Below the pieces are notes generated by a model. That model searched no databases. It was not told where the DNA came from and saw only the letters and a list, made by a program, of their open reading frames with translations. A DNA stretch of 64,000 bases from Candidatus Omnitrophota bacterium (lineage in GTDB: Bacteria > Omnitrophota > Gorgyraeia > 2-01-FULL-45-10), in assembly GCA_016935115.1 (NCBI GenBank), contig JAFGRN010000002.1:3748-67747 (forward strand), given 5' to 3'. The position numbers and the translations under genes were made by a program. Numbering within the stretch: position 1 is the first letter of the stretch; each line of letters starts with the position of its first letter. Positions 5,943 to 47,231 of this stretch are shown piece by piece.

Positions 5943-5964
5943 GCCTGTGGCTTATCGGCCAAGT

Positions 5965-7784: not shown

Positions 7785-7789
7785 ATTGC

Positions 7790-8860: not shown

Positions 8861-8873
8861 GGACTTTATCCCC

Positions 8874-24195: not shown

Positions 24196-24208
24196 ACTCG
24201 CTCCGACG

Positions 24209-24832: not shown

Positions 24833-24834
24833 TG

Positions 24835-30794: not shown

Positions 30795-31494
30795 GCCGGT
30801 TTATCGCCACGAGATCGGGCCTATTCCTGAGCAGGGCAACGACGTCGCGCGATCGGATAAACTTAAGATGCCCCAGCGCCTTAAATATTTCGGACACGTG
30901 ACGAAGATCGTCGGCGGTATCGACGGTCACCCTGAAAGATGATGCATCGTCATCGCCGGCATATGCCTTTACAGGAAGGTTTTCGTATATGTACGGGGTT
31001 ACATGCTCCCGTTCACGCTTCTCTCCTGCTTTGTCATATGCCTCTTTGAGCGAATCCATACTGAAAACTTCAGCGTCAAACCCGCGGGGGTATGTCCTTG
31101 TAATGGTATTGGACATGTACGCTACATCATCAGCTGACAAAAAGGAGCGCACCATGTCATCGATCATATATGGATCCGATAGCGGACAGTCGGAAGTTAC
31201 CCGCACCACGGTATCCAACCTGTATTCTTTCGCCGCTTCGTAATATCGTGCCAGCACGTCGTCCTCATCGCCGCGATATACTGAAACGTCCTCATCCCGG
31301 GCGCATTTGACTATAACGTCATCGCGCCCGTTCCTGGTGGTAGCCACGATTATCACGTCCGCGGTCTCGCAGGCTTTCAATCGCCCGAGCAGAATGGCAA
31401 GCATGGGCTTATCCGCTATCTCCATCATCACCTTGCCGGGAAGCCTGCTCGAACCCATCCGCGCCTGCACAATGATACCGGTCCTTCCAGCCAT
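30769..31494 (-). CDS. CMP-nonulosonate cytidylyltransferase (PseF/SpsF-like)
   Basis: TGIIVQARMGSSRLPGKV N-terminus typical of the PseF/SpsF cytidylyltransferase family. Confidence 0.65.
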   Translation of the reverse strand: MAGRTGIIVQARMGSSRLPGKVMMEIADKPMLAILLGRLKACETADVIIVATTRNGRDDVIVKCARDEDVSVYRGDEDDVLARYYEAAKEYRLDTVVRVTSDCPLSDPYMIDDMVRSFLSADDVAYMSNTITRTYPRGFDAEVFSMDSLKEAYDKAGEKREREHVTPYIYENLPVKAYAGDDDASSFRVTVDTADDLRHVSEIFKALGHLKFIRSRDVVALLRNRPDLVAINRHVEQKAVA

Positions 31495-33108: not shown

Positions 33109-34479
33109 TTAGTATAATGAGCTCAGCTTTTCAAGATACGTATCAGACTTCGGATATGTTACCGGTCTTTGTATAAGAGCTGTTATCTCATTGAAGTAAT
33201 GGTCCAATACCTCATCCGGAAGCTTTGTGAAATTGATCGTTCGCTCAAAGAACAGGTTACCCAGGCTCTTGATAAATTCCCATTCATCCTTGATCTGGCC
33301 GTTATTTACACATTCCCTCCACAGACGGGTGCCCGGTGACGGCGTCAGGTATGACAACTTTCCCTTCTTCTCAAGGCCGTTTCTCTTTATGAAATCGATC
33401 ATGTCAATATAATCCTTCTCTGTATCCCATGGAAAGCCTACGATGAAATTTGCGGAAACGCCGATACCATATTTTCGCAGCAGCGCAAGCTTTCCCTCGA
33501 CATCCCTGATCCTTATACCCTTACTTACGCGATTCAAGGTCTCCTGGTTTACGGACTCGATGCCGGTTGCCACAACCGCAAGGCCGTTATCTCTGCCTAG
33601 CGAGCATATCTCCTCGTCTATGGCATCTATACGACATTGTCCTCTATATGTAAAGTTCATGCCCAACCGTTGTTTTTTCACTATAAAGTCCTTGTAAAGC
33701 GCTTTTATCTCCAGAAAATTCTCGTCGACAAAGTAGAATCTGTCGAGATCATGATTATTTATGATCCCTGCCATCTCATCCAGAATCATATCAGGGCTCT
33801 TTACGCCTATTCCCTGGACCAGCTTGTGACAGAACGAACAATTCCCTTTACAGCCACGGGATCCCATAATATCGAACGACTGATTAGTTTCTTTAAGGTA
33901 TTTTATATAAAATTCCATATCAAGCGACTCGTAGTTTGAGGCGGAAAGAGCTGTCAATTGATACATATTGTTGACACGCGCTCCGACGATCATCTTATCG
34001 GGTTTTATTCCGAAGATACTGCCATTGAGCCTGTAGAATATGCCCGGTATATTATCCGGACGGAAGTTTCCGGCCCAAATAGATCGTATGAACGCTGGAA
34101 AGGCCTTCTCTCCTTCGCCTACAAGGATATACGCGCACTTACAGTTATTGAGCAATAGTTCCGGCATCGAGGAAGGCAAAGCTCCGCCATAGATGATGAT
34201 ATGTTCCGGATTTATATCAAGCGCGATCCCGGCAAATTTTTCAACCTGGTTTATCTGGTCGTTCCCGGCCATTATATTAAAACCTATTATGGCCGGCTTC
34301 GACGGGATCCTTTCCCGGAAGACCCTTTCACGATCTGCCGTATCCACGGGAACGAGATCGATGGCGTCAAAGTCGATATTATGCAGTCTGAGGGTATTGG
34401 CGAGCACGGTCAGCCATATGGGCAGCTGTACCTGCACGCTCTTTCTCGATACGTTTACAATAAATACGTCGTATGGCAT
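33109..34479 (-). CDS. cobalamin-binding (class B) radical SAM enzyme
   Basis: SRGCKGNCSFCHK with a B12-binding-like N-terminus. The track start (34629) lies inside the upstream gene; the ATG at 34479 (MPYDVFIVNV…) sits 16 nt after the upstream stop. Confidence 0.75.
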   Translation of the reverse strand: MPYDVFIVNVSRKSVQVQLPIWLTVLANTLRLHNIDFDAIDLVPVDTADRERVFRERIPSKPAIIGFNIMAGNDQINQVEKFAGIALDINPEHIIIYGGALPSSMPELLLNNCKCAYILVGEGEKAFPAFIRSIWAGNFRPDNIPGIFYRLNGSIFGIKPDKMIVGARVNNMYQLTALSASNYESLDMEFYIKYLKETNQSFDIMGSRGCKGNCSFCHKLVQGIGVKSPDMILDEMAGIINNHDLDRFYFVDENFLEIKALYKDFIVKKQRLGMNFTYRGQCRIDAIDEEICSLGRDNGLAVVATGIESVNQETLNRVSKGIRIRDVEGKLALLRKYGIGVSANFIVGFPWDTEKDYIDMIDFIKRNGLEKKGKLSYLTPSPGTRLWRECVNNGQIKDEWEFIKSLGNLFFERTINFTKLPDEVLDHYFNEITALIQRPVTYPKSDTYLEKLSSLY

Positions 34480-34495
34480 AGTGTTGTCCCGTATA

Positions 34496-35983
34496 TTAAC
34501 AGCATGACGCGCTCCGCGAGGACAGGCCTGTAAGCCTTTCCTGAAACTGTTTTCTCGCGTCTTCCGCGCATATATCGTTACCCTCGGCAATCTGTATCTG
34601 CGGCCAGATGTCTTCCGGCAGGCGGACATAGAACTCGAACGTCCGGAGCAGCCCGTCTATCTCTCCGGATGTCATCTTAGACATACCGAAAGACGATGCC
34701 CTTGAGACCGGCGTGATCATGCCGCTTTCATCCCTCAGGCGCGGATGGAACCGGTTATATATTTCGGTCCCGGGATAAGGATATATGGCGTAAACGTTGA
34801 CGGCGGGAATATCTAGAGATTTATTCAACTCTATCGTCTCAAAAACATTCTCCCGGGTCTCGCCCGGCAGCCCTATCATATTGAAAGTAGTGACCCGTAT
34901 GTTCGCGCCCTTTAAAATATCCACGGCATGCCGGATCTGGTCATTCGACATCCTGCGATTTAGGATCTCGGCGCGGATACGCTCATTCCCCGATTCGAGC
35001 CCGATATTAGCCGCCACGCAACCCATGGAGACCAGCAGGTCGACCTTGCGCTTGCTTATCGTCTCGGGGCGTAATGAACAGGCAAATTTAATGCCGAGCG
35101 GCTTCAGTTCGCCCACAAGCGACGTCAGGAATTTTTCATCGAATAATGCCAGCGACTCGTCGTAAAAACGGAAGAAGTCCGCATTATATCGCTCCTTCAG
35201 GAAGCGGATCTGCCGGCCCGTAGTCTGCGGGGATTGGAACCGGAAATACCGGCCGCAGCCCCTGAACTTATCCCTGAAGGCCCAATTCAGGCAATATGTG
35301 CATCTCTCCGGACAGCCGCGCGACATAAGAAAACATCCCCCGGAATATACGGTGCCCTGGAACGGGCGGAAGAGATGGCGCTTGTCGAAGATGCCCCAGT
35401 CCATATCGGGCAGATTGTCGAGATTGACGAACGGGCGCAATTCATTGAAACGCGTACCGCGTTCCGTCTTATACCCCAGATTCCGGATACCGGTGATATC
35501 CTTTCCTTTTTCCATCGCTTCGCATAATTCGACCATGAACTCTTCCCCCTCACCGACGCAGATCATATCGATCTCCCTGAAGGACAGGGCATCTTCGGGG
35601 CAAATGGTCGGATGGATCCCCCCGGCAACCACGCGGCAGGACGGCTTCACTTTTTTGAGAAGATCAATTACAGCGTCAAAATAGCCGGTCAATACGGATA
35701 CCGCCACCAGGTCGGGCCGGAACCGCTGCAGTTTTTCCGCAAACGCATCCTCCAGCGAAAATACCGGATCATCGGCAGTCAGGTCCTCCAGTGTGTAGCG
35801 GGTCGGAAGCAATATTCTTGTGCCATAGGTCGGCGTGGTATCACGGACAGCCGTCTTTATGAACGTCCAGTCGAAAACGTCCACTTCGTGTCCGCGCTCT
35901 TTCAACAATGAGGACAAAGTGGCTATCCCCGTCGGAACTCCGTTCGAAAGATAGGCATTGGGATACATGAAAAGTATCTTCAT
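34496..35983 (-). CDS. cobalamin-binding (class B) radical SAM enzyme, 495 aa
   Basis: MKILFMYPNAY… B12-binding-like N-terminus and SRGCPERCTYC. Confidence 0.8.
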   Translation of the reverse strand: MKILFMYPNAYLSNGVPTGIATLSSLLKERGHEVDVFDWTFIKTAVRDTTPTYGTRILLPTRYTLEDLTADDPVFSLEDAFAEKLQRFRPDLVAVSVLTGYFDAVIDLLKKVKPSCRVVAGGIHPTICPEDALSFREIDMICVGEGEEFMVELCEAMEKGKDITGIRNLGYKTERGTRFNELRPFVNLDNLPDMDWGIFDKRHLFRPFQGTVYSGGCFLMSRGCPERCTYCLNWAFRDKFRGCGRYFRFQSPQTTGRQIRFLKERYNADFFRFYDESLALFDEKFLTSLVGELKPLGIKFACSLRPETISKRKVDLLVSMGCVAANIGLESGNERIRAEILNRRMSNDQIRHAVDILKGANIRVTTFNMIGLPGETRENVFETIELNKSLDIPAVNVYAIYPYPGTEIYNRFHPRLRDESGMITPVSRASSFGMSKMTSGEIDGLLRTFEFYVRLPEDIWPQIQIAEGNDICAEDARKQFQERLTGLSSRSASCC

Positions 35984-37176
35984 CTTAAGGCGCCTTTTTT
36001 ATCGGCTGCCATACCAGAATAGCAGTTCGTCTTCGGGTCGGTTATCGAGCGATATATCGGCATGAAATCGTCATGGTATGGGGACTGTGGATCGAGAAAG
36101 GCATGCAGTCCGATGCTGTCCCTGGAATATATCTTCGACTTCAAAAAACGGTGAAGCGGCATTATCGTCCGGCCGGTGATGCCATTGTTCCTTATAAAAT
36201 CTTTCGCCCGCTTCTTCATTGCCGGAATGCCGCCATTACGCCTATTCCGCGTCGAGATAAAAGCCGTGTTAATATAATCCTTAACGGCATCTCTGGCTAT
36301 CTCTCCGGCCCTCTCCTGTGAAATATTTTCTCTTCCGGCGATCTCTTGCGCAAAACAATCGGCCAGTTTCGTATACTTCTCGGTGGCCATTATCTCCTCG
36401 CTCGATTCATGCTTCGGGACTTCCTCTCCGGTTCCGTAAAGGAGCGCGGATCCCTGGTTATCATGGGCCTCCCGCGCCAGATATAGTTTATTGAGCATGC
36501 CCGACTTACCCTGGATGACAGACAGTCCGCTCAGGGCCAGCTCTCCCACATTAAGGTGAAGATTACGGGAACAACACCACATCAGGTTCCGCTTATATTC
36601 GTCCGTGCGGTGAATTGAGTAGGCGGTTGGCATGCAGTTTCTAAGATGATTTCGCAGCCTTTCGGATGGCTTGCTATCCTGAATAGACCTTTGCCCGTAA
36701 TAACTTATCCACCTGACTGCCGGGCCGTCCGGTGTCATGCCGGCGTTGAAGAGGCACGTCATTCCATGGACAACACTGTAGTCCCTATGCGCATCGAGGA
36801 ATTCGATGCCCTCATTCAGCGTGGACAGGACCATGAAATCATCGTCCGCCCAGAAGACGGTGTATGGCGTCGAGACCTTCTCCAGTCCGGACAATATCCT
36901 GTCCTGGAGAGTTGTTTTCGTATCGAACAGGGTGCGGATCGAGTGGTTTCTCTGCAGCATCGACAGCGGGATGTTCATATCATCCGGGGTGTCGCTGGAA
37001 TCCAGGATATGGACCCTAAAAGGAAACCCTACTGAATCCATGTATGAGATCACCCGCCTCAGCCTGGAATACCTGTTGCGTGTGGGCATCAGCACCGTCA
37101 GCTTATCGGACAATCCGCCGCCGGGGCTATGCATACACATCCTGTGCGGCTTCGCTGTAGAGGATCGTACAGTCAC
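35980..37176 (-). CDS. GT-A-fold (family-2-like) glycosyltransferase, putative
   Basis: LTVLMPTRNRYSRL resembles the GT2 N-terminal strand; a DxD-like ADDD is present. Confidence 0.5.
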   Translation of the reverse strand: MTVRSSTAKPHRMCMHSPGGGLSDKLTVLMPTRNRYSRLRRVISYMDSVGFPFRVHILDSSDTPDDMNIPLSMLQRNHSIRTLFDTKTTLQDRILSGLEKVSTPYTVFWADDDFMVLSTLNEGIEFLDAHRDYSVVHGMTCLFNAGMTPDGPAVRWISYYGQRSIQDSKPSERLRNHLRNCMPTAYSIHRTDEYKRNLMWCCSRNLHLNVGELALSGLSVIQGKSGMLNKLYLAREAHDNQGSALLYGTGEEVPKHESSEEIMATEKYTKLADCFAQEIAGRENISQERAGEIARDAVKDYINTAFISTRNRRNGGIPAMKKRAKDFIRNNGITGRTIMPLHRFLKSKIYSRDSIGLHAFLDPQSPYHDDFMPIYRSITDPKTNCYSGMAADKKGALR

Positions 37177-38092
37177 TGCAGATCTTCATCGACGTCTTCT
37201 TCCCCTTCTCATTTATCGCCCTGATCGCTGTTATCTTTTCGTTATTGAATATCTCTATCGGCGACGCGTCCCTGACATTACCGAGCGAATAGTTCGCATG
37301 GTGCAGGTCCGAACAGCACAACGGCACGGTGCCATCCCAGAGGATCATAAGCCGGTCGTAAACATGATGGCACGGCTTCGCGTCAATGGCCTGGTCTCTC
37401 GCGGCGATCCTATCCTGCGGATCACCGAGCTCGCCTCCCCACGTATGCGCCCCGTAACCGATTATAAGATCCTTCTTCTCCGAGGAGATCCGCGCCTTCC
37501 AGTACGCCCTGAAATCGTCCCACTCGGCCTTGTTGGATTCCTGCCGGATAAAGCGGAATACAAAACGGGTCTTATAATTTCCGGCATCCCTCTTCCTGAT
37601 GATACTTTCGGCATTGGCGACAATGGAGTCAAAATTGACGCCCTTGCGGATATTCTCATGCGTGCTCTTCCTGTAACCGTCGATGCTGAAGATGATCGTA
37701 TCTATGCCGCTCGACAGGAGAGCGTCCTGATGTTTTTCGTTCATAAGGTCCCCATTCGTCGCAATTGCGATACTCTGAAATCCCTCGCGCTTGGCGTACC
37801 TGATCTTTTCGAACAGGGTCTTGTCCAGCAATGGCTCTCCCAGGCCCCAGAGGTCGACCTTTTCGATCTGCGCGGCAAACGGCTTCAGATCGTCAATGAT
37901 TTTCCTGAATAGTTCCATGGACATCACGCCTTTTTTGCGTTTCGTAGGCATGTCGACGGGGCACATCACGCATTTCGCGTTACATCCGAAGACCACCTCT
38001 AATTGTATCCTCTTAGGAATTAAAATATTATTCCGCATCTTGGCCTCTATCTTTACAGGTAAAGCCGGCATTAAGCCTTTTACGTAATTCAT
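37127..38092 (-). CDS. radical SAM enzyme with SPASM/twitch domain
   Basis: GCNAKCVMCPV radical SAM motif and a C-terminal KPCHHV…VPLCCSDLHH region. Confidence 0.7.
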   Translation of the reverse strand: MNYVKGLMPALPVKIEAKMRNNILIPKRIQLEVVFGCNAKCVMCPVDMPTKRKKGVMSMELFRKIIDDLKPFAAQIEKVDLWGLGEPLLDKTLFEKIRYAKREGFQSIAIATNGDLMNEKHQDALLSSGIDTIIFSIDGYRKSTHENIRKGVNFDSIVANAESIIRKRDAGNYKTRFVFRFIRQESNKAEWDDFRAYWKARISSEKKDLIIGYGAHTWGGELGDPQDRIAARDQAIDAKPCHHVYDRLMILWDGTVPLCCSDLHHANYSLGNVRDASPIEIFNNEKITAIRAINEKGKKTSMKICSDCTILYSEAAQDVYA

Positions 38093-39230
38093 TCTTGGGT
38101 TTCTCTATCGCTTCCAGCGTCCTGATCACCTGTCCTCCCCTGTGCGCCAGTATATGGGGAAACCGGCGCAGATAGCCCATCACTTTTTCCACACGTTCGT
38201 CGATCTGCGCGGCGGAATAAAACGGCAGGCCCATCTTCTCTATCCTTGCGTGCTTCACCCGCTCGAAACCGTGCACCGCGACTTCGTCGAAGATCTCCGC
38301 GACGAATTCTACGGAACTTAAGTCTTCCTGCTCGGTTGCGGTCGGATACCCGATGATCAGATCCGTCCGCAGGATCAGGTCCCTGCGCGACACTCGCAGC
38401 TTCTTGAAGTACGGCTTTAATCCGGTGACCACCGGTTTTCTGTCCATCAGGGCAAGCACACGATTACTCGTCGATTGAATAAGGACCTGAAATTCCCTCA
38501 CCTTCTTATCCATAAGCAGCGGCCATAATTCATCACGATAGACGTGGACCCAGTCCGCATTTATCTGGGACAGGTGAATTTGAAAATCAAATTCGCCGAT
38601 TATCTTCTTCAGTAATTCGGGATAAGTCGTCCCGATATCGGTGCCATACGAGCCAGTATCGTTTCCGGCAAGGCATATGGTATGGACCTTCTTCTCGAGG
38701 TTCCTGATCTGGTAAAAGATGCTCTCGGGAGGAACGCTCTTTAGGTTTCCTATGCCCAGCTTATGCGGGCAGAACGGACAGTCGGACGAGCAACCCGTCT
38801 GCAGAAGGATGAACTGTTTCCCGGGATCGTAGAGCCTATGGTCCTCTTTGCCGCGAAACCCCGTAGCTTCTGGGATATCTTTAAGCGGCACCGCAGGATC
38901 CTCTATAAGGGCCTTTACATCCGTCCAGTTGAACGAAGGGATGACGCGGTTCGGAGAGAAGGGCCTGATACGTTTCATATTGATTCCCGGCAGGCATCCA
39001 AAAACCACCAGCTCGGCACCGGACTTCATCCCCGTCCTGGCGGCCTCGATAAAGCCGACAGCCTCGTCTTCAAGGCTTTTGAACGCTCCGCATGTGCCTA
39101 TGATCACGACATCCGCCTCACTCTGGTTCGTCGTGGGAACCATATCATTGGCCATCAGGTAATTGTTTATCCTGTTCAGGATAAGCTTGTACGGAGTGCA
39201 GACATTGTCTTTTATGTAGAACGATCTCAT
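38028..39230 (-). CDS. MiaB/RimO-family methylthiotransferase-like radical SAM enzyme lacking a TRAM domain
   Basis: The N-terminal MTTase domain has three Cys at the spacing seen in MiaB (NVCTPY / IGTCGAF / FGCLPG, about 36 and 32 residues apart), followed by the radical SAM motif GCSSDCPFC. I see no C-terminal TRAM-like segment. The start is set to the second ATG (39230), which removes overlap with the upstream gene. Confidence 0.65.
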   Translation of the reverse strand: MRSFYIKDNVCTPYKLILNRINNYLMANDMVPTTNQSEADVVIIGTCGAFKSLEDEAVGFIEAARTGMKSGAELVVFGCLPGINMKRIRPFSPNRVIPSFNWTDVKALIEDPAVPLKDIPEATGFRGKEDHRLYDPGKQFILLQTGCSSDCPFCPHKLGIGNLKSVPPESIFYQIRNLEKKVHTICLAGNDTGSYGTDIGTTYPELLKKIIGEFDFQIHLSQINADWVHVYRDELWPLLMDKKVREFQVLIQSTSNRVLALMDRKPVVTGLKPYFKKLRVSRRDLILRTDLIIGYPTATEQEDLSSVEFVAEIFDEVAVHGFERVKHARIEKMGLPFYSAAQIDERVEKVMGYLRRFPHILAHRGGQVIRTLEAIEKPKNELRKRLNAGFTCKDRGQDAE

Positions 39231-39246
39231 CTTCCCTTTCTCACTG

Positions 39247-40389
39247 TTAAAGAATATGCGCTTTCGCATTTATGCCCATTCCGCTGAGCGCGCCCTCGAT
39301 CTCTTTTTTATATACGCTGTTCATGACCAGGACGTCAATCTTTCCCGTTGCCTTCCTGAGTACGGCCGGAGGCTCGATGCGCTTCGCGCTTACCGGCAGG
39401 AACCTCCCCTGCTTCTTCTCATTTATATCCACGACGTATTTCACGCGTTTCAGCAACTCGTCATTAAGGGCGCTCAGAAATAACACTCCCTTGCCCGAAG
39501 CGCCCCAGACGCATAGATTCTCCGCAGAGCGGATAAAATCGTCCCGCTCTCTTTTTATGCCCTTAAGGACGTTGCCCAAGTCAATTCCGGAAGCTTCCGG
39601 ACGGCCGCTCATCGCATCTTTGCAAGCCGTCGGGTCGTATACGGCCTCCAGCAGTATATATTCCCCTCCGAAAACATTGCTGATCCGGATATCGCGGAAC
39701 CCCGCCGAAGAGATCAGCGCCGCCAGGCTCTTCCTGCAAAAATAGTTACAGTGCTCATAAGTGATGTCATAAAAGGCCTCTTTCCTGACTATCCATTCGA
39801 GATCCGGCACTTCGACGCAGATCTTCGCTCCCTTTGCCAGAACACTGGGCCTGCATATCTGCTTCAGGAAGAGATACGGCTTATGAAGATGCTCGAGAAC
39901 ATGCCTCAGTATAAGTACATCATATCCGGAATCCGCGGCGGAAGGGCTGAAATATTCCTTCCGGAAAATTACCGATCCCTGAACGCCGTCACCGGTATAT
40001 GCCCTGTCGTAACCGAAACCCCTTGCGTGCGTCCTGTCACATAATTTCTTTAAAAAATCGCCGTTGCCGCATCCGACCTCCAATATTCTCGCGTCCTTCC
40101 GGATGTCTTTGCCGACTTTGGAGGCAAGTTCATCCAGATAATCGCGATAGGCAGGCGAGCTATCCCTGCTATTGTCATAATGCCGGTCATATTCCAGGAT
40201 ATCCGGGTCGAAAGCGCTATTAAAGACCGCGGCGCACTTATCGCAGGCTACCAGCTCGACCTCTCCCACGGGAGCCTTGACAGCCTCGGCCGCCGTCCGA
40301 TAGGTGACGTTGTTCATCGCGGGACAACGTTCCTTTCGGTAGACGACTCTGCGCTCGATCCGTTCACGGCAACATGGGCATTCGATCAT
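39247..40389 (-). CDS. sugar C-methyltransferase-like protein (Zn-ribbon plus class I MTase plus C-terminal domain)
   Basis: N-terminal CPCC…C Zn-ribbon and SAM motif LEVGCGNGDF, with a domain order like TylC3-type C-methyltransferases. Confidence 0.55.
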   Translation of the reverse strand: MIECPCCRERIERRVVYRKERCPAMNNVTYRTAAEAVKAPVGEVELVACDKCAAVFNSAFDPDILEYDRHYDNSRDSSPAYRDYLDELASKVGKDIRKDARILEVGCGNGDFLKKLCDRTHARGFGYDRAYTGDGVQGSVIFRKEYFSPSAADSGYDVLILRHVLEHLHKPYLFLKQICRPSVLAKGAKICVEVPDLEWIVRKEAFYDITYEHCNYFCRKSLAALISSAGFRDIRISNVFGGEYILLEAVYDPTACKDAMSGRPEASGIDLGNVLKGIKRERDDFIRSAENLCVWGASGKGVLFLSALNDELLKRVKYVVDINEKKQGRFLPVSAKRIEPPAVLRKATGKIDVLVMNSVYKKEIEGALSGMGINAKAHIL

Positions 40390-40408: not shown

Positions 40409-41125
40409 CTATAGTTTTTTTAAAAATCCGTCGGGACAATATGTCGTCTTAAGGCGGTTATAGGTCCTGTCGACTTCCCAGCCGGATCGCCCCCGTAAAA
40501 AGTCCCTTATCGCCCTCATCGGATTATCGTCCTTCCATTCCTTCTTCCCGGTCGGATTGCTTGTCAGCATCTCCTGGATTCCATCCATGACCACCATGTA
40601 ACTGCCCCTGGATACAAAGCGGGAATAGATCTCCAGCTCTTTCAGGACGTGGCCGTACGAATGATTGGAATCCAGTATTACTAGAACTTTATCGCTCTTT
40701 TTTACGCCGTTCTGAACGACCCTGACCGTATCCTCGCTCGTGGAACTGCCCTGGATGAGCTCTATCCTTTTGGATAACGGGTGTTTCCTTATAGCGGCTT
40801 CATTGGGCTTTCGTATATCTATGTCGACCCCGATCACTTTGCCATTGCCCAATAATTCTAGAATCGAGGCGCTAAGCATGAGGGACCCGCCATGGGCCAC
40901 TCCGGTCTCGATAACGACGTCAGGGCGCACTTTCCACAACAGCTCCTGCATCATCACGATATCCGAAGAGAGCTGTATGATCGGGATACCCAGCCATGTC
41001 GGCTCGTAAACGAGCCTGTTATGAAATGACACCCGCTCCCATAACCGGGCCACCAGCGACAGGCCTTCTTCGCTGTATATATCCACCTCTTTCGATTCAT
41101 CCCCGTCAAGAACCCTGATCTTCAT
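40409..41125 (-). CDS. CmcI-family (cephalosporin-hydroxylase-like) methyltransferase
   Basis: …VIETGVAHGGSLMLSA…VIGVDIDIR… is typical of the CmcI/class-I MTase family frequent in heptose-modification loci. Confidence 0.6.
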   Translation of the reverse strand: MKIRVLDGDESKEVDIYSEEGLSLVARLWERVSFHNRLVYEPTWLGIPIIQLSSDIVMMQELLWKVRPDVVIETGVAHGGSLMLSASILELLGNGKVIGVDIDIRKPNEAAIRKHPLSKRIELIQGSSTSEDTVRVVQNGVKKSDKVLVILDSNHSYGHVLKELEIYSRFVSRGSYMVVMDGIQEMLTSNPTGKKEWKDDNPMRAIRDFLRGRSGWEVDRTYNRLKTTYCPDGFLKKL

Positions 41126-42144
41126 TGCTCACTCCCTTGCCTTGGCACGGAACACGACCTGTCACAATCGCTCACATAAATGATCTTGCTCCCCTGCGAC
41201 TCAAAACTGAACGGCGTCTCCCTGAGCCCGGAAAGAGCCCTGCGCACGCCGTCCTGTTTATCCTTTTCACAATAAAACAGGAGGAAGCCGCCTCCTCCAG
41301 CGCCCAGCACCTTGCCCCCCACAGCGCCAGCCTTCAATGCCTTCTCGTAGCTTTCGTCAATCCTGTTATTCGTAATACCGTTGGCGAGCTTCTTTTTGAG
41401 CAGCCACCCTTCGTGTAATATCTCGCCAAAACCGTGCAGGTCGTTCCCCTGAAGCTTCTTCAGCAACTTCTGAGACAACGCCACTATGTCGTTCAGGTGC
41501 GCCATGTTCTGCTTTGTCTTCTCGCCCTGCTCTTTCAATATCGATGACGACACACGCGTGACCCCTGTGTAGAAGAGCATCAATTTGTCGTTAAGAATCT
41601 TTTTCGTCTCCCCCGGAAATATGACCGGGTCGACGAAGACGCTATCGTCACTGTTAAACCTGATATACTGGATCCCCCCGTATGCGGCTATATACTGATC
41701 CTGTTTACCTATGGGGTTCTTCAGTACGTTTATCTCGATCTCGCACGCCTCCCTGGCCAGGCGTTCACCGGAAACATGCTGGCCCTTGAATGCGTATAAA
41801 GCGTTCAGTACGCCTACGGCCAGGCTGCTCGAGGATCCGAGGCCTATGCCCGCGGTTCCCAGAGGGACGTCACCCATGTAGACGACCTCGATACCCCTCT
41901 TGATGCCGGCCAATCGCAACGCCTCGCGGATTATATTGTGCTCCACCTGGTCGACGGTCTCGACAAGCTCAGTCTTCGAATAACTTACCCGGACCAGATC
42001 ATCGAACTTCTGGTTCACCGTTATGTAGATGTATTTATTGATCGCGGCGGAGACAACCGAACCAGGCCTGTTTCTGTAATATTCTGGCAGATCGGAGCCG
42101 CCGCCCGCAAAACTCACTCTCAGTGGTGTCCGTGAAATGATCAT
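41122..42144 (-). CDS. GHMP kinase, D-glycero-D-manno-heptose 7-phosphate kinase-like (HddA-like)
   Basis: PLRVSFAGGGSDLPEYY N-terminus and GHMP motif PLGTAGIGLGSSSSLAV. Confidence 0.7.
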   Translation of the reverse strand: MIISRTPLRVSFAGGGSDLPEYYRNRPGSVVSAAINKYIYITVNQKFDDLVRVSYSKTELVETVDQVEHNIIREALRLAGIKRGIEVVYMGDVPLGTAGIGLGSSSSLAVGVLNALYAFKGQHVSGERLAREACEIEINVLKNPIGKQDQYIAAYGGIQYIRFNSDDSVFVDPVIFPGETKKILNDKLMLFYTGVTRVSSSILKEQGEKTKQNMAHLNDIVALSQKLLKKLQGNDLHGFGEILHEGWLLKKKLANGITNNRIDESYEKALKAGAVGGKVLGAGGGGFLLFYCEKDKQDGVRRALSGLRETPFSFESQGSKIIYVSDCDRSCSVPRQGSEQ

Positions 42145-43034
42145 ACCTTCACCTCCAGGCTCTTAAGATATTGCCTTATTCCCGACTCAATGCCGGTCCT
42201 GGCCCGCCATCCGAAAATTGTGCGCGCCCTGGATGTATCCGCCCAGAAGTCCGCCGTCGCCTTCGTCCTGGCGGCTTCCAGCGCAGCGGCTTGCACCGGC
42301 CGCCTTCCCATGGCTTTCTCCAGTTCCATACAGACTTTCCAGACATTCACCGCGGCGCCGGTCCCGAGATTATACGCGCCCGAAGGTATCTCCTCTTTTA
42401 CGGCCCGCACTATCGCCTCCGATACATCATCCACGTAAATAAAATCGTTCGCGTTCCACGGCGTGCGGATCACGGGTGTTTCGCCTCTCAATAACGCAGA
42501 GGCCATAACCGGAATCAGCGAAGTCTCCTTCTGGCCGGGGCCATAGATGAAAAAACCGCGCAGCCAGATAAACGACGTGCCGTTCTTCGCGGCGAGCGTC
42601 ATACCAAAATCGCACAGAGATCTCTTCGCCCATGCAAAATAGGAATTAACGGGCGCCAGGACATCTTCCCTGCAGGCGCCGTAAGACTGGCCATATTCCC
42701 AGCAGCTTCCCATCGATACGATCTTCCGGCATCCGCACTCCTCGGTCAACAGGCGAAATAGCGCTGTTCCCTGGCCCAGGTTCCTGCGGGACATCTCAAA
42801 ACCGTAATCCGGGATTCCTTCCCACGCAAGGTGAACACAGGCATCCGGACGGAAAGCTTTTAACGCGCCTTCCAGCGAATCCGGCTCATTAAGATCTCCT
42901 TCGATAACGCGGAGCTTTCCGGCGAGTCCGGCCGGCGCCTTACGACAGACGACGGCGATTTCATCCGCGCCGGACAAAGAACGCTGCAGCCTTCTGCCTA
43001 TAAATCCTGTCGCTCCCGTTATAACGATCTTCAT
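42141..43034 (-). CDS. NAD(P)-dependent sugar reductase/epimerase (SDR)
   Basis: MKIVITGATGFIGRRL Rossmann motif; placed after the RmlC-like epimerase, as a 4-reductase would be. Confidence 0.65.
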   Translation of the reverse strand: MKIVITGATGFIGRRLQRSLSGADEIAVVCRKAPAGLAGKLRVIEGDLNEPDSLEGALKAFRPDACVHLAWEGIPDYGFEMSRRNLGQGTALFRLLTEECGCRKIVSMGSCWEYGQSYGACREDVLAPVNSYFAWAKRSLCDFGMTLAAKNGTSFIWLRGFFIYGPGQKETSLIPVMASALLRGETPVIRTPWNANDFIYVDDVSEAIVRAVKEEIPSGAYNLGTGAAVNVWKVCMELEKAMGRRPVQAAALEAARTKATADFWADTSRARTIFGWRARTGIESGIRQYLKSLEVKV

Positions 43035-43050
43035 GATATCCTCGCCGGAG

Positions 43051-43614
43051 TCAAACGGTCACCGCGCCTTCTTTTGCCAGATAATCCTTAAATGACGGCG
43101 CGGCCAGGTCCTTATCCGAAATGATAAGCGGCCCATTGATCGGCCATGAAATATTCAGGTCCGGATCCTTCCAGTGTATCGTCCGGGAACTCTCCCGGTG
43201 GTACGGCGTATCCATCTTATACAGAAGGGAGCAATCGTCCGTCAAGGTATACATTCCCATGGCCATCCCCTTGGGCGCGTACAGAAGTTCCGGGGCCTCT
43301 ATCGAAAGCTCGACGCTATCCCATAGGCCGAACGTCGGCGAACCCGCGCGCATATCTACAAGAACCATAAAGGCCCTGCCCTGCGCCACCCGAACAAGTT
43401 TCGTTTCAGTATAAGGTGAGCATTGAAAATGCAGCCCCCTCAAAGTACCTCTCTTCTTTGAAAAAGAGTGAGTTTCCTGGATCCACCGCGTCACAAGGCC
43501 ATATCCGGCAAGAATATCCCGGTCATAGGTGCGGGCCAGGAACCCCCTGTCGTCTCGGTGCGGGGCGAGCGTGATCCGGAACGCGCCATCTATCTTTAAA
43601 GGAATAAGTTCCAT
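43051..43614 (-). CDS. cupin sugar-nucleotide 3,5-epimerase (RmlC-like)
   Basis: 187 aa; …RDDRGFLARTY…GTLRGLHFQ… matches the RmlC fold motifs. Confidence 0.7.
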   Translation of the reverse strand: MELIPLKIDGAFRITLAPHRDDRGFLARTYDRDILAGYGLVTRWIQETHSFSKKRGTLRGLHFQCSPYTETKLVRVAQGRAFMVLVDMRAGSPTFGLWDSVELSIEAPELLYAPKGMAMGMYTLTDDCSLLYKMDTPYHRESSRTIHWKDPDLNISWPINGPLIISDKDLAAPSFKDYLAKEGAVTV

Positions 43615-43618
43615 AGCT

Positions 43619-44884
43619 TCATAGCTCCCGCGCCATCAACTGCGGAGCCGAAATTACCCGCGGCGCTTTCGGAAACGGCACTATATATTGCCCCCTGAAT
43701 CCGCGCCTGGCGCATTCGTCCATGATCTCCCCGGCAAAATTCCACGCCAGTATAAAGATCACATCCGGCCTGAATGCCAGGCCTTCTTCAAACGACACAA
43801 TCGGCAGATCGCCGGCAGGAGTCATGCATCCCTGCTTGAGAGGATTATTGTCGATGATGGCTCTGAGATAGTTGGGCCCGATGCCGCAAAAATTGATAAA
43901 CGTGGCACTGCGCGCCGAAGCGCCAAAACCCACGATCACCTTCCCGCTCAGGGACTTGAGCAGATCCAGCATCTTTTCGCGATGGTCTATGGCATAGCCG
44001 GCAAATTTTTCCCAGGCCGCGAACTTATTGATCCCGGACCTTTTTTCAGCGCATAAGAGCTCTCCGTATTCCGGTTGCTGCGGACGTTTTGTCTTGGAAA
44101 AGTACAACACGATCGACCCGCCGCTAATGGGACTCTCATCTACGGCAAAGGGGTACAGCCCGTAACGTTCAAGAAGGTTTCCGAGGGAATGCGCCGTAAA
44201 ATAGCACAGGTGCTCATGATAGATGGAATCGTAATGAAGATCCCTCGCTATGACGGCTCCGCTGTGAAATTCGATCACGCCGGTACCGTCATCGGAGAGA
44301 GCGCTGGCGATACCTTCGGTCACGCCGTGAAGGTCGCTCACATGCGGAATGACATTCCGCGCTATTATCGTTTTCGGCCTGCCGTACCGGGCGACCGCCG
44401 TTTTCGCCGAAGAGGCATCCCAATACGAACAGTCCGTGGGAACTCCGTTGCGAACGGCCATCTCGGCTATATTTCTCGCCGGCTCTATTCCGAGGACTTT
44501 CATCCCGCGGGCCGCGAACTGCCTGAGGACCGTGCCGTCGTTCGAGGCTATCTCAAAGACCATATCCCCGCGGCGCAGGCCGGAGCGATCGATGACCCGG
44601 CCTGAAAATATGCCCGCATATTCCTGCGCGCATTTTGAAGTACCGGTGACCCACACGTACCGATCGAAAAGGACCTCTTTACGCAGTGTTTCTCTGAGCT
44701 GGAAAAGAGAGCATTCCGGGCAGAAGGCCGTAGAGAGAGGAAATTTTTCAATTCTGCCGGCGGCGGGGCGCACCAACGCGTTGGCAAGCGGCTGTTCACC
44801 CAGATTAAGGACATCTTTCAGCCCCTTATATCCGCAAATCCGGCAGGCTGTAATCGTTTCAAATATTTTTGACATTGGAGCCAT
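43619..44884 (-). CDS. sugar C-methyltransferase (TylC3/NovU-like family)
   Basis: N-terminal Zn-ribbon CRICGYK…CPEC, a class I MTase core and a C-terminal dinucleotide-binding-like domain; 421 aa is typical of the family. Confidence 0.6.
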   Translation of the reverse strand: MAPMSKIFETITACRICGYKGLKDVLNLGEQPLANALVRPAAGRIEKFPLSTAFCPECSLFQLRETLRKEVLFDRYVWVTGTSKCAQEYAGIFSGRVIDRSGLRRGDMVFEIASNDGTVLRQFAARGMKVLGIEPARNIAEMAVRNGVPTDCSYWDASSAKTAVARYGRPKTIIARNVIPHVSDLHGVTEGIASALSDDGTGVIEFHSGAVIARDLHYDSIYHEHLCYFTAHSLGNLLERYGLYPFAVDESPISGGSIVLYFSKTKRPQQPEYGELLCAEKRSGINKFAAWEKFAGYAIDHREKMLDLLKSLSGKVIVGFGASARSATFINFCGIGPNYLRAIIDNNPLKQGCMTPAGDLPIVSFEEGLAFRPDVIFILAWNFAGEIMDECARRGFRGQYIVPFPKAPRVISAPQLMAREL

Positions 44885-44891
44885 AATTGTC

Positions 44892-45926
44892 CTATCGGAA
44901 CAGGCGAAGGTCCCCTGAAACCTTTTTATTGTCCTGCAGATACCTGATCTGCTTTAGCCTGGCGCAGGTACGCCCGCGAAAATGATCCTCATTGAACCCC
45001 GTCTTCCTGAAAAACCCGATGAGTTCTTTCCCTCCGCTATCGAGGTCCCATTCGGGCCTGAAATAGTCTTTAAGCACGGAGAGGATCTTTTTAAAACTGA
45101 CCTGATATGTGCGGGAATCATTTCCGTGCTCGCCGGTGAAGACTAGGGAGCTTCCGGAAACCGAACGCTGCGCAGCTTCGGCGAGTTCACGCACCGTAAA
45201 GTTGCCTCCCGGGATACCGACATTGAACGCCTGGCCGGAGACGAGTGACAGCGGCGCTTCGAGCCCGGCTATATAGGCGCTCGAGACATCACGCACATGG
45301 ACCACCGGCCGCCATGGCGACCCGTCGCTCTTTATCTCGATCCTGCCCGTAGCGTAAGCGCATCCGACCAGATTATTGTAAACGATATCGCACCTGAGGC
45401 GGGGGCTCGCGCCGAATACCGTCGACGGGCGGAAGGAGACGACATGAAAATTCTTATCGGCCAATTTCTTAAGGGCGCATTCCGCTTCCCATTTTGTGCG
45501 GGCATAGGCCGTCAGCGGATGCTTCTTGCTGTTGTCCTCATCGAGCTCGCAATCGACGGCCGAAACTCCGTACATGCTCTGCGATGAGGAATAGATAAAC
45601 CTTTTCACTCCCGCGCTCTTCGCGGCCAGCGCGGCCTTCACGGTCCCGCCCAGGTTGATCTCTTCCGTCAATCCTGGGGCAAACTCGCCAAGCGGATCGT
45701 TGGATAGCGCGGCCAGATGAATCACCGCGTCGACCCCCTCCATATCCTCCGTCGTGATGTCGCGGATATCTTTCCTTATCTGCCGTATGGCCGGATTGTA
45801 CGGATGCAGAAGGCAATCCGCATAGTACCCGATATCATACCCGACCACTTCATATTTCCTGTCGAGCAGCATATCGACCAGGACGCTGCCGATATACCCC
45901 TGATTGCCCGTAACCAGTACTTTCAT
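44892..45926 (-). CDS. NAD-dependent nucleotide-sugar dehydratase/epimerase (SDR)
   Basis: MKVLVTGNQGYIGSVL and YARTK catalytic motif. Confidence 0.65.
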   Translation of the reverse strand: MKVLVTGNQGYIGSVLVDMLLDRKYEVVGYDIGYYADCLLHPYNPAIRQIRKDIRDITTEDMEGVDAVIHLAALSNDPLGEFAPGLTEEINLGGTVKAALAAKSAGVKRFIYSSSQSMYGVSAVDCELDEDNSKKHPLTAYARTKWEAECALKKLADKNFHVVSFRPSTVFGASPRLRCDIVYNNLVGCAYATGRIEIKSDGSPWRPVVHVRDVSSAYIAGLEAPLSLVSGQAFNVGIPGGNFTVRELAEAAQRSVSGSSLVFTGEHGNDSRTYQVSFKKILSVLKDYFRPEWDLDSGGKELIGFFRKTGFNEDHFRGRTCARLKQIRYLQDNKKVSGDLRLFR

Positions 45927-45927
45927 A

Positions 45928-46476
45928 TCACGCCTTTACTTTCTCCAGCTCATACGCAAGGCTATCGACTACCGACGACAGCCAGGATTGATGGACGGCT
46001 TCTATGATATTGTACTCGTCACTGTCGGTCCACAAATTGAGGTCTCCGAGCCGCCTCAATGGATTATCCGGCCTGAACCCCGAGAGAGTGATCACCTTAA
46101 GGCCCATCGATCTGGCCTGCCGGGCGGCATTCACGATGTTGGGCGACTTACCGCTGCTGCTGATCAGGATCACCAGGTCCCCGGCGCAGGCATAGGCTTT
46201 CAGCGCCTCTTCGACCCAATGCTCATAACCGTAGTCGTTGGAAAAACATGTGATCAGGTCCGCGTCGTTAAAACTGATCGCGCGGACACCCGCCGTCTTT
46301 GTAAGGTCCACCGATACATGGCTCGCGATCGCAGCGCTGGCGCCATTGCCTGCGATCATGACCTTGCCGCCGAGTGATGACGCCTCTCGCACAAGCGCCG
46401 CGCCCTTCTCTATGGCGTCGTCATCGACATCGAGAATTGCCCGGCATATCCTCTGCAGATAATCTCTGATCTTCAT
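45928..46476 (-). CDS. gmhA: SIS-domain sedoheptulose-7-phosphate isomerase (GmhA-like)
   Basis: SIS motifs (…GGKVMIAGNGASAAIASH…DLVILISSSGKSPN…). The ATG at 46476 (MKIRD…) forms an ATGA overlap with the upstream stop and is preceded by GGGAGG; the track's longer N-terminus is rejected. Confidence 0.7.
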   Translation of the reverse strand: MKIRDYLQRICRAILDVDDDAIEKGAALVREASSLGGKVMIAGNGASAAIASHVSVDLTKTAGVRAISFNDADLITCFSNDYGYEHWVEEALKAYACAGDLVILISSSGKSPNIVNAARQARSMGLKVITLSGFRPDNPLRRLGDLNLWTDSDEYNIIEAVHQSWLSSVVDSLAYELEKVKA

Positions 46477-47231
46477 TCTCCGCCCTCCCGTCTTAAGCAC
46501 GCGAATCCCTTCTCCCGGGACGCCTTTTCGAACCGGATAAGATCCCCGGGGGATGTGATGAAGTAATATTGTTCGTCAGAAACGAACGCTCCCAGCCGCC
46601 CGTCTGCGGCCAGGCGCGCCAGTATCTTCTCCTCAAAAGAGATATTGCCCTCCTCCGCCCTGTCGAGAACCTTCCTGTCTACCAGGAAAAATCCGATATC
46701 GATCCCGTTCAACCCTTCCATGCGCCGGTTCTTATCGTATGCCACGACCTTTCCGCGGTGATCCACGGCAACATTATTCCCGGAGCCATACTCGCCCGTA
46801 CCCTGTTTATTGCTGAACACCGTTGTCGTCACGGGAACCCCGATCCGCTCATAATTGAAGATCATCTTGTCCAGCGGAATCGTCCAATAATTGTCGCCAT
46901 AGAGTAACAGAAACCGGTCTTCGAGCTTTTCGTAAGCGTCCAGAAGCCGCCTGCCGGTCAGGTCATCTTCTGTCCCGACCGAATAGTCTATCCGCAGCCC
47001 GAATTCTCTGCCGTCACCATAGTAGCCCATGATCGCGTCTGCGCGATAACCTACCAGAAAGAGAATCCTACGGATGCCGGAGTTGACGAGCGACCGCATC
47101 AGATAGTCCGTAAACGGCCTCCCATTCACCGGCACCATCGGCTTCGGAATGCCATCCGTGATGGGCCTGAGGCGTTCACCGCGGCCACCCGCGAATATGA
47201 CTGCCTGCTGGATTGTCATTTGTTTATGCAT
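46473..47231 (-). CDS. sugar-1-phosphate nucleotidyltransferase (HddC/GMP-like)
   Basis: AVIFAGGRGERLRPITDGIPKPMVPV nucleotidyltransferase signature; first gene after a promoter/operator. Confidence 0.65.
   Translation of the reverse strand: MHKQMTIQQAVIFAGGRGERLRPITDGIPKPMVPVNGRPFTDYLMRSLVNSGIRRILFLVGYRADAIMGYYGDGREFGLRIDYSVGTEDDLTGRRLLDAYEKLEDRFLLLYGDNYWTIPLDKMIFNYERIGVPVTTTVFSNKQGTGEYGSGNNVAVDHRGKVVAYDKNRRMEGLNGIDIGFFLVDRKVLDRAEEGNISFEEKILARLAADGRLGAFVSDEQYYFITSPGDLIRFEKASREKGFACLRREGGE

What the first reader, a model, noticed from the sequence alone, without database searches (positions are those of the whole stretch)
38028..39230. TRAM-less MiaB-like methylthiotransferase in a heptose-modification block
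The protein has the three-Cys MTTase N-terminal domain at the spacing seen in MiaB and a radical SAM CxxxCxxC core. It appears to lack the C-terminal TRAM domain that MiaB, RimO and MtaB use to bind their RNA or protein substrates. It is flanked by an SPASM radical SAM gene, two C-methyltransferase-like genes, a CmcI-like MTase and GDP-heptose genes. A methylthiotransferase scaffold retargeted to a sugar or small-molecule substrate would be unusual; it could perform methylthiolation or another two-cluster radical chemistry on a glycan precursor.
Basis: partly seen in the sequence, partly recalled or inferred. Interest (0 to 1): 0.65.

Follow-up and report, generated by a model that had tools for sequence, protein, structure and literature searches.

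The report
TRAM-less methylthiotransferase-like enzyme in sugar cluster
This gene encodes a two-iron-sulfur-cluster radical SAM enzyme built like the tRNA and ribosomal-protein methylthiotransferases but without their substrate-gripping TRAM domain, and it belongs to an uncharacterised family that travels with nucleotide-sugar tailoring genes in many phyla, so it probably modifies a sugar, which no enzyme of this type is known to do.

Summary
Window 38028-39230 (-) encodes a 400-aa protein with a UPF0004/MTTase N-domain and a radical SAM core. Its Cys11, Cys48 and Cys80 align with the auxiliary-cluster ligands of MiaB, and the CxxxCxxC motif is intact. Sequence searches and a pLDDT 93.9 model find no TRAM. 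A conserved helix / short strand / long basic helix tail with an HxGxQ motif takes its place.

The protein is not a truncated MiaB. It belongs to a coherent family found in at least 10 phyla. In about 20 of 22 loci the gene sits among nucleotide-sugar genes: NTP transferase, 4,6-dehydratase-like SDR, Zn C-methyltransferase, RmlC-like epimerase and CmcI-like methyltransferase. The heptose genes, the SPASM partner and the second methyltransferase occur only in the subclade that includes this window.

The best reading is a methylthiotransferase scaffold retargeted to an NDP-sugar, here a GDP-6-deoxyheptose derivative. Methylthiolation is the default chemistry but is unproven. No curated family covers the protein, and I found no paper on it. 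Novelty: new variant of a known kind. Interest about 0.66.

The parts
38028..39230 (-). TRAM-less MTTase-like radical SAM gene (400 aa). N-domain Cys11/48/80, radical SAM C148xxxC152xxC155, and a family-specific C-terminal tail (residues ~335-400) with the HRGGQ motif.
37127..38092 (-). Radical SAM-SPASM gene. It overlaps the 3' end of the MTTase-like gene and is a syntenic partner in the close subclade.
39247..40389 (-). Class I methyltransferase (Methyltransf_23 plus a weak C-methyltransferase C-domain, no Zn domain). It lies immediately upstream and is a constant neighbour in the close subclade.
40409..41125 (-). CmcI / rhamnosyl O-methyltransferase-like methyltransferase (PF04989, E 2.7e-69). 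It is a neighbour of the family in 16 of 22 loci and is often adjacent.
41122..42144 (-). GHMP kinase. The best match is heptose-7-phosphate kinase HddA (E 1.1e-41, below cut-off).
42141..43034 (-). SDR, the putative 4-ketoreductase of the NDP-sugar pathway.
43051..43614 (-). RmlC-like 3,5-epimerase (TIGR01221, 151.9 bits against a cut-off of 155.75).
43619..44884 (-). Zn-domain sugar C-methyltransferase (PF08421 + PF13489 + PF08484). It is the most constant partner of the family, present in 18 of 22 loci.
44892..45926 (-). SDR, the putative NDP-sugar 4,6-dehydratase or C4 oxidase. It is a constant partner of the family.
45928..46500 (-). SIS-domain isomerase. The best match is GmhA (sedoheptulose-7-P isomerase), below cut-off.
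46473..47231 (-). Sugar-1-phosphate nucleotidyltransferase, similar to HddC and to mannose-1-P guanylyltransferase.
35980..37176 (-). GT2-like glycosyltransferase (weak match) downstream of the SPASM gene. It is the probable transferase for the modified sugar.
   Evidence: homologues in L006, L007

Best explanation
The gene encodes a member of a distinct, uncharacterised branch of the MiaB/RimO/MtaB methylthiotransferase lineage.

What it keeps and what it has lost: the protein keeps the N-terminal three-Cys domain, which in all characterised relatives holds the auxiliary [4Fe-4S] cluster. It also keeps the radical SAM core. The TRAM domain is replaced by a short conserved helical tail.

Where it acts: it works inside a nucleotide-sugar tailoring pathway rather than on tRNA or ribosomal protein S12.

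Inferred pathway in this window:
1. GmhA-, HddA- and HddC-like enzymes make a GDP-heptose.
2. An SDR makes the 4-keto-6-deoxy intermediate.
3. The Zn C-methyltransferase, the RmlC-like epimerase and a reductase make a C-methyl-branched 6-deoxyheptose.
4. The CmcI-like and second methyltransferases add methyl groups.
5. The MTTase-like enzyme then functionalises an unactivated C-H of the sugar.

Inferred mechanism, taken from MiaB and RimO:
1. One SAM methylates a sulfide on the auxiliary cluster.
2. A second SAM is cleaved reductively at the radical SAM cluster.
3. The 5'-deoxyadenosyl radical abstracts a sugar hydrogen.
4. The sugar radical captures the cluster-bound SCH3, giving a methylthio-sugar.
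5. The GT2-like enzyme transfers that sugar into a surface glycan.

Shown here: the domain architecture, the conservation of the cluster ligands, the absence of TRAM, the coherence of the family, and the conserved sugar-gene neighbourhood.

Inferred: that an NDP-sugar is the substrate, the position attacked, the order of steps, and that the group installed is SCH3.
For: Architecture and homology: searches give MTTase HMMs at E 1e-41, RimO at E 2e-49, Foldseek top hits of MtaB, MiaB and RimO, and a Cys triad aligned to MiaB's ligands.

Absence of TRAM: matches end before the TRAM part; pLDDT 93.9, helical tail; an ad hoc TRAM HMM finds canonical hits only.

Not a degenerate copy: there are 74 clusters at 90% identity, all 385-410 aa. 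All six Cys and the tail motif HxGxQ...E..K/R...(M/L)R are conserved in 21 loci. The family forms a separate group in an NJ tree.

Context: the gene sits with an NTP transferase, a 4,6-dehydratase-like SDR, a Zn C-methyltransferase, an RmlC-like epimerase and a CmcI-like methyltransferase in about 20 of 22 loci across distant phyla, including cultured Pseudodesulfovibrio piezophilus, Bowmanella denitrificans, Fluctibacter corallii and Azospirillum griseum.

Gene spacing: in the close subclade the genes are tightly packed with the methyltransferase upstream and the SPASM gene downstream, with overlaps of 4-65 nt.

Background: every characterised UPF0004 + radical SAM enzyme is a methylthiotransferase (PMC10702137, PMC2952846).
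Against: - No product is known. No methylthio-sugar has been reported from any organism carrying the cassette, and literature searches found none.
- Identity to characterised MTTases is only 18-23%, and scores are far below the curated family cut-offs, so the chemistry may have diverged.
- Auxiliary clusters with a free site can bind substrate rather than donate sulfur (PMC5352715).
- Two loci lack the sugar cassette: L008 entirely, and L019 has only an NTP transferase plus PseB/PseC.
- The lysine- and arginine-rich C-terminal helix could in principle contact a polyanion other than an NDP-sugar.
- No GmhB phosphatase gene was found in the window.
Confidence: 0.5

Rival explanations
1. Same scaffold and same NDP-sugar substrate, but different chemistry. 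The three-Cys auxiliary cluster may anchor the substrate or relay electrons, as in MoaA, TYW1 and BtrN-type enzymes. The enzyme would then carry out a radical epimerisation, dehydrogenation, dehydration or rearrangement. Alternatively it may install only a heteroatom (SH or OH), which the nearly always adjacent CmcI-like methyltransferase then methylates. That would be an anaerobic counterpart of the CmcJ/CmcI hydroxylate-then-methylate pair.
For: - Identity to real MTTases is low and scores are below cut-off.
- The CmcI-like gene is adjacent or near in 16 of 22 loci. In the distant subclade the CmcI-like gene is often the gene immediately adjacent to it.
- Auxiliary clusters with an open site serve as substrate binders in some radical SAM enzymes (PMC5352715).
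- A radical SAM enzyme using its own cluster sulfur on a sugar without methyl transfer has a precedent in AbmM (PMC12691670).
Against: - The UPF0004 domain is so far known only from methylthiotransferases (PMC10702137, PMC2952846).
- The MTTase core motifs, QS.S..L..M.R and GYP..TEE, are retained.
- P. piezophilus has the MTTase-like gene but no CmcI-like gene in the 21-kb locus, so the two are not obligately coupled.
Confidence: 0.3
2. The enzyme acts on a macromolecule associated with the glycan pathway rather than on a nucleotide sugar. The target could be the glycosylated acceptor protein, the lipid carrier or the finished polysaccharide. The basic C-terminal helix would serve as the docking element in place of TRAM.
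For: - The conserved C-terminal helix is rich in Lys and Arg.
- RimO shows that the scaffold can act on a protein (PMC2952846).
- The locus also carries glycosyltransferases.
Against: - The invariant neighbours are soluble NDP-sugar tailoring enzymes, not a conserved acceptor protein or a particular glycosyltransferase.
- No conserved small ORF or carrier gene travels with the family.
Confidence: 0.1
3. It is an ordinary tRNA or S12 methylthiotransferase that has been truncated or mis-called, and it lies in the sugar island by chance.
For: Some sources label family members 'tRNA A37 methylthiotransferase MiaB'.
Against: - The ORF is intact and full length, with a conserved, confidently folded non-TRAM tail.
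- There are 74 clusters of the same length.
- Synteny is conserved across phyla.
- The family is a group separate from canonical MTTases, and scores are far below the equivalog cut-offs.
Confidence: 0.03

Closest known systems
MtaB / e-MtaB (TIGR01579 / TIGR01578; model 9a6d) tRNA t6A37 methylthiotransferases
   Same: They are the best HMM match (141 bits, E 3.4e-41) and the best Foldseek match (E 1.3e-22, TMq 0.74). They share the UPF0004 three-Cys domain, the radical SAM CxxxCxxC core and the QS.S..L..M.R and G(F/Y)P..TEE motifs.
   Different: The window protein has no TRAM domain and scores less than half the curated cut-off (141 against 315). Its linker motif (YRLYDPGK), post-cluster motif (CPHKxGxG) and C-terminal tail (HxGxQ) are specific to its own family. 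Its genomic context is sugar biosynthesis, not translation.
RimO (PDB 4jc0), ribosomal protein S12 Asp88 methylthiotransferase
   Same: It is the best solved-structure match by sequence profile (E 2.3e-49 over residues 25-352) and has the same two-cluster architecture. It shows that the scaffold can be retargeted away from RNA.
   Different: RimO keeps a TRAM domain adapted to bind its protein substrate (PMC2952846). The window protein's alignment ends at RimO residue 356, before the TRAM domain.
MiaB (PDB 7mjv-7mjz), tRNA i6A37 methylthiotransferase
   Same: All three auxiliary-cluster cysteines and the radical SAM cysteines align. Foldseek gives E 6e-20.
   Different: Identity is 18%. All three MiaB domains, including TRAM, contact tRNA (PMC10702137). 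The window protein lacks that domain.
Other TRAM-less MTTase-like proteins (uncharacterised; e.g. P0103-P0235)
   Same: They have UPF0004 + Radical_SAM, are 360-430 aa long and have no TRAM. They are found with glycosyltransferase, ABC-2 transporter or sulfatase genes or fused to MurB-like or histidine-phosphatase domains.
   Different: They lack the HxGxQ tail: their matches stop at profile position ~355. They form a separate group in the NJ tree, and their gene contexts differ.
Sulfur-inserting radical SAM enzymes acting on small molecules (BioB, LipA; AbmM on a sugar)
   Same: Functional analogy: a radical SAM cluster plus a second Fe-S cluster that supplies sulfur to an unactivated carbon. 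AbmM shows that cluster-derived sulfur can enter a sugar (PMC12691670, PMC5352715).
   Different: They have different folds and domains for the auxiliary cluster, perform no methyl transfer, and show only distant homology (LipA Foldseek E ~1e-5).

Membership tests
MiaB/RimO/MtaB radical SAM methylthiotransferase family (TIGR00089; Pfam UPF0004 + Radical_SAM + TRAM) | N-terminal UPF0004 domain with three conserved Cys that ligate the auxiliary [4Fe-4S] cluster | tested here: met
   PF00919 scores 31 bits against a cut-off of 27. Cys11, Cys48 and Cys80 align to the MiaB cysteines and are conserved in 45 + 21 family members. Cluster binding itself was not tested.
MiaB/RimO/MtaB radical SAM methylthiotransferase family (TIGR00089; Pfam UPF0004 + Radical_SAM + TRAM) | Radical SAM core with a CxxxCxxC motif | tested here: met
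   PF04055 has E 1.7e-9. C148xxxC152xxC155 is invariant.
MiaB/RimO/MtaB radical SAM methylthiotransferase family (TIGR00089; Pfam UPF0004 + Radical_SAM + TRAM) | C-terminal TRAM domain | tested here: not met
   No PF01938 or PF18693 hit at E<=1. HMM matches end at model position ~328 of 429. The AF2 tail is helix-strand-helix at pLDDT ~90. An ad hoc TRAM HMM gives no hit.
MiaB/RimO/MtaB radical SAM methylthiotransferase family (TIGR00089; Pfam UPF0004 + Radical_SAM + TRAM) | Score above the curated family cut-off | tested here: not met
   TIGR00089 scores 130.9 bits against a cut-off of 251, and TIGR01578 scores 141.4 against 314.7.
MiaB/RimO/MtaB radical SAM methylthiotransferase family (TIGR00089; Pfam UPF0004 + Radical_SAM + TRAM) | Catalyses methylthiolation (two SAM per turnover, SCH3 transferred from the auxiliary cluster) | not testable with these tools
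   This needs enzymology or glycan mass spectrometry.
B12-binding (class B) radical SAM methyltransferases | Cobalamin-binding N-terminal domain (PF02310) rather than a Cys-triad domain | tested here: not met
   There is no PF02310 hit. TIGR04013 scores only 22 bits. The Cys triad is conserved instead. The nine true B12-rSAM genes in the window do hit PF02310.
GDP-D-glycero-D-manno-heptose pathway (GmhA, HddA, GmhB, HddC), as context for the neighbours | All four enzymes present and matching the equivalog models | tested here: inconclusive
   GmhA-, HddA- and HddC-like genes are the best hits but fall below cut-off (82/209, 143/600 and 88/300 bits). No GmhB-like HAD phosphatase was found in the window. 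In P. piezophilus the phosphatase is fused to the NTP transferase.

The most novel reading that the evidence does not exclude
This family could be the first carbohydrate-directed methylthiotransferase. It would install an SCH3 group on an unactivated carbon of a C-methyl-branched 6-deoxy-heptose or -hexose nucleotide. Methylthio-sugars made this way would then be an unrecognised component of surface glycans in at least ten bacterial and archaeal phyla. The much larger set of TRAM-less MTTase-like proteins would be a reservoir of small-molecule C-H thiomethylating enzymes.
Probability: 0.4. Interest if true: 0.85.

Novelty: new variant of a known kind. Interest (0 to 1): 0.66.

Why it matters
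According to a 2023 study of the family (PMC10702137), methylthiotransferases are known to act on only two kinds of substrate: A37 of tRNA and Asp88 of ribosomal protein S12. A branch that has shed the TRAM domain and is genetically tied to nucleotide-sugar tailoring would extend this difficult chemistry, C-H to C-SCH3 at unactivated carbon, to small molecules and glycans. It would also predict a glycan modification that has not been described. It gives radical SAM enzymologists a soluble, small-substrate system for studying auxiliary-cluster sulfur donation.

Testing is practical because family members occur in cultured organisms: Pseudodesulfovibrio piezophilus, Bowmanella denitrificans, Fluctibacter corallii and Azospirillum spp. 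The finding also shows that automated 'MiaB' labels on these proteins are wrong.

Tried and rejected
- Truncated or degenerate MiaB: rejected. The length, the folded tail and the synteny are all conserved.
- B12-dependent class B radical SAM enzyme: rejected. There is no PF02310 hit, and the Cys triad is conserved.
- Hidden TRAM: nothing was found in Pfam at E<=1, in the NCBIfam alignment ends, in the AF2 secondary structure, or with an ad hoc TRAM HMM built from canonical hits.
- Heptose as the family's defining context: rejected at family level. The distant subclade (30-36% identity) usually lacks GHMP kinase and GmhA within 10 kb.
- Plasmid-borne copies in well-studied strains, to link the gene to a known O-antigen structure: none. 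Only RimO and MiaB were hit.
- Literature on sugar or small-molecule MTTases, TRAM-less MTTases and methylthio-sugars in LPS: six full-text searches found nothing relevant. The library lacks most subscription-journal papers.
- Foldseek against AFDB50: the library was not available.
- The model coordinates could not be read in the sandbox, so cluster-to-cluster distance and pocket residues were not measured.
- A GmhB phosphatase in the window: not found.
- A second MTTase-like gene in the window: none.
Full report
**1. What is at the coordinates**

The minus strand carries an ORF at 38028..39269 (413 aa). It is preceded by GAGAAAGGGAAG and matches the N-termini of 44 homologues, so it is the likelier start. 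The public annotation of the identical protein (P0001, a Candidatus Omnitrophica MAG) uses the longer form.

- Pfam finds UPF0004 at residues 20-89 (31 bits, gathering cut-off 27) and Radical_SAM at 142-303. It finds nothing else at E<=1.
- NCBIfam finds the MTTase models MiaB-like-B (E 3.4e-41), TIGR00089 (E 5.3e-38), MtaB, RimO and MiaB. All are far below their curated cut-offs. All alignments stop at model position ~320-337 of 416-437, which is before the TRAM part.
- These E-values rule out a chance arrangement of cysteines.

**2. Cluster ligands**

A profile of 45 family members matches RimO 4jc0 (E 2.3e-49) and MiaB 7mjz (E 8e-38). In the MiaB alignment the family's NVC-TPYK, GTC-GAF and FGC-L align with MiaB's GC-QMN, NTC-S and LGC-M, which are the three N-domain cysteines. 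In the 45-sequence alignment Cys47/48, Cys79/80 and the CxxxCxxC motif are invariant, and Cys11 is present in at least 90% of sequences. In 21 independently fetched loci all six cysteines are present.

**3. No TRAM**

The AlphaFold2 model built on the family alignment is confident (mean pLDDT 93.9, pTM 0.90). After the radical SAM barrel it has helix 340-354, a four-residue strand at 361-364 (the HRGG motif) and a long helix at 369-398. There is no beta-barrel. Foldseek ranks MtaB (9a6d), MiaB (7mjv-z) and RimO (4jc0) first, with E 1e-22 to 1e-18 and query TM-score 0.70-0.74. The B12 enzyme MgmA and other class B enzymes come next. An ad hoc TRAM HMM built from the canonical hits recovers only canonical proteins. 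It recovers none of P0001-P0074 or P0087-P0235.

**4. A family, not a relic**

The word-indexed search found 74 clusters (at 90% identity) of 382-430 aa with 29-73% identity. Scores then drop sharply, from 139 to 83 bits, to canonical MTTases that carry TRAM_2.

Family-specific features are conserved even at 30% identity:
- a linker motif, EFR.KE.YRLYDPGK;
- C(P/T/H)H(K/R)xGxG directly after the radical SAM motif;
- the tail, FDE(V/I)AV(H/Y)..E ... HxGxQ ... E..(K/R)...(M/L)R.

The exhaustive search of 1.84 billion representatives gave about 16 representatives (at 50% identity) that match through the tail. Below them lie more than 130 further proteins of 360-430 aa that match only to profile position ~355 and also lack TRAM. 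A rough NJ tree separates canonical MTTases, these 'other TRAM-less' proteins and the family proper.

**5. Context**

In the window the gene is the tenth of a co-directional run, listed here from upstream to downstream:

| Coordinates | Gene |
|---|---|
| 46473-47231 | NTP transferase (HddC / Man-1-P guanylyltransferase-like) |
| 45928-46500 | GmhA-like isomerase |
| 44892-45926 | SDR dehydratase |
| 43619-44884 | Zn C-methyltransferase |
| 43051-43614 | RmlC-like epimerase |
| 42141-43034 | SDR reductase |
| 41122-42144 | HddA-like kinase |
| 40409-41125 | CmcI-like methyltransferase |
| 39247-40389 | second methyltransferase |
| 38028-39230 | MTTase-like (this finding) |
| 37127-38092 | rSAM-SPASM |
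| 35980-37176 | GT2-like glycosyltransferase |
| 34496-35983, 33109-34629 | two B12-rSAM genes |

I fetched 22 loci carrying relatives and scored them with tblastn using the window's proteins.

- Partners of the family: Zn C-methyltransferase in 18 of 22 loci, CmcI-like methyltransferase in 16 of 22 (often adjacent), and dehydratase-like SDR, RmlC-like epimerase and NTP transferase in most loci.
- Two of the loci that lack these partners are contigs of 1.5 and 4.9 kb.
- GHMP kinase, GmhA, the SPASM gene and the second methyltransferase are essentially confined to the subclade with >=45% identity (Omnitrophota, P. piezophilus, Xenobiia and metagenomes).
- In Bowmanella denitrificans the MTTase-like gene is the only radical SAM gene in a cassette of NTP transferase, CmcI-like methyltransferase, dehydratase, Zn C-methyltransferase, three more methyltransferases, RmlC-like epimerase, a TylF-like methyltransferase and a PhyH dioxygenase.
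- Exceptions: a Planctomycetota contig (L008) with a GH95 neighbour, and Azospirillum cavernae (L019), which has only an NTP transferase and PseB/PseC nearby.

The family-level association is therefore with a C-methyl-branched 6-deoxy NDP-sugar pathway. Heptose is the version found in this window.

**6. Mechanism**

Shown:
- a two-domain MTTase core with all cluster ligands;
- loss of TRAM and its replacement by a conserved tail;
- conserved linkage to NDP-sugar tailoring genes.

Inferred from the characterised relatives (PMC2952846, PMC10702137):
- the N-domain cluster accepts a methyl group from SAM on a sulfide;
- a second SAM gives the 5'-deoxyadenosyl radical;
- the resulting substrate radical captures SCH3.

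The substrate would be an NDP-sugar intermediate or product of the cassette. I give this about 0.5.

The main rival (about 0.3) keeps the sugar substrate but changes the chemistry. In one version the auxiliary cluster acts as a substrate anchor or electron relay (PMC5352715). In another the enzyme inserts only a heteroatom, and the CmcI-like methyltransferase methylates it afterwards. The frequent adjacency of the CmcI-like gene fits the second version, but P. piezophilus lacks that gene. A macromolecular substrate (about 0.1) and a mis-called tRNA enzyme (about 0.03) are less likely.

**7. Comparison with what is known**

The protein works like an MTTase as far as sequence and fold can show. 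It fails two membership criteria of the curated family: the TRAM domain and the score cut-offs. It should therefore not be labelled MiaB, MtaB or RimO, although some sources do label relatives that way.

No NCBIfam model covers it. In six full-text searches I found no paper describing a TRAM-less or sugar-directed MTTase or a methylthio-sugar made this way. A 2023 paper states that tRNA and S12 are the only known MTTase substrates (PMC10702137). AbmM gives a precedent for cluster-derived sulfur entering a sugar, on an unrelated scaffold (PMC12691670). The searched library omits most subscription-journal papers, so the absence of a report is not proof that none exists.

**8. Verdict**

The chemistry is unproven. 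I rate the finding a new variant of a known kind, with interest 0.66.

Noticed in passing
window 3063-55898 (minus strand): The whole window is one co-directional glycan island with 12 radical SAM genes. Nine are B12-binding rSAM genes: 3063-4451, 11759-13813, 15901-17355, 22168-24195, 33109-34629, 34496-35983, 47366-49381, 50934-52505 and 53298-55898. Two are rSAM-SPASM genes (19150-20211, 37127-38092), and one is the MTTase-like gene. This is an unusually dense set of radical tailoring enzymes for a sugar locus.
   Followed up: partly
window 53298-55898 (-): An 866-aa B12-binding radical SAM protein is fused at its C-terminus to a DUF2334 domain.
   Followed up: no
window 4507-11155 and 21379-25881 (-): There are two nonulosonic-acid gene sets. 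They include two NeuB genes (10049-11155, 24835-25881), a NeuC-like 2-epimerase (8874-10052), a CBS-NTP transferase like the legionaminic-acid enzyme PtmE (7790-8884), and CMP-sugar synthetases (7074-7784, 30769-31494). Each set has a HisH/HisF-like amidotransferase pair (5319-5942 with 4507-5325, and 24209-24832 with 21379-22167), which suggests acetamidino-type modification.
   Followed up: no
P0103-P0235; loci L024, L025: A large further group of UPF0004 + radical SAM proteins also lacks TRAM but does not have this family's tail. Examples sit with GT2, ABC-2 transporter, SDR and rSAM genes (L024), or with sulfatase, arylsulfotransferase and GT4 genes (L025). Others are fused to a MurB-like domain (P0102, 1245 aa, two MTTase-like modules) or to a histidine phosphatase (P0196). 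TRAM-less MTTase-like enzymes appear to be widespread and unstudied.
   Followed up: partly
window 39231-39269: The public gene call for this protein (P0001, 413 aa) starts 13 codons upstream of the start supported by homologues and the ribosome-binding site. That longer start overlaps the end of the upstream methyltransferase gene.
   Followed up: yes
window 49381-50916, 17352-19220, 20208-21377, 5965-7077, 1125-3059 (-): Five long ORFs inside the island (511, 622, 389, 370 and 644 aa) have no Pfam match at E<=1e-5.
   Followed up: no
L004 582-3290: In one distant-subclade locus the cassette is preceded by an SIS isomerase, an SDR, a DHQ-synthase-like (sugar phosphate cyclase-type) gene and a 2-hydroxyacid dehydrogenase. 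This hints at a different seven-carbon precursor route.
   Followed up: no
L008 7196-8956: In a Planctomycetota MAG the family member may carry an N-terminal extension of about 190 aa (ORF of 586 aa). It lies next to a GH95 glycosidase rather than sugar-biosynthesis genes, which makes it an exception to the conserved context.
   Followed up: partly
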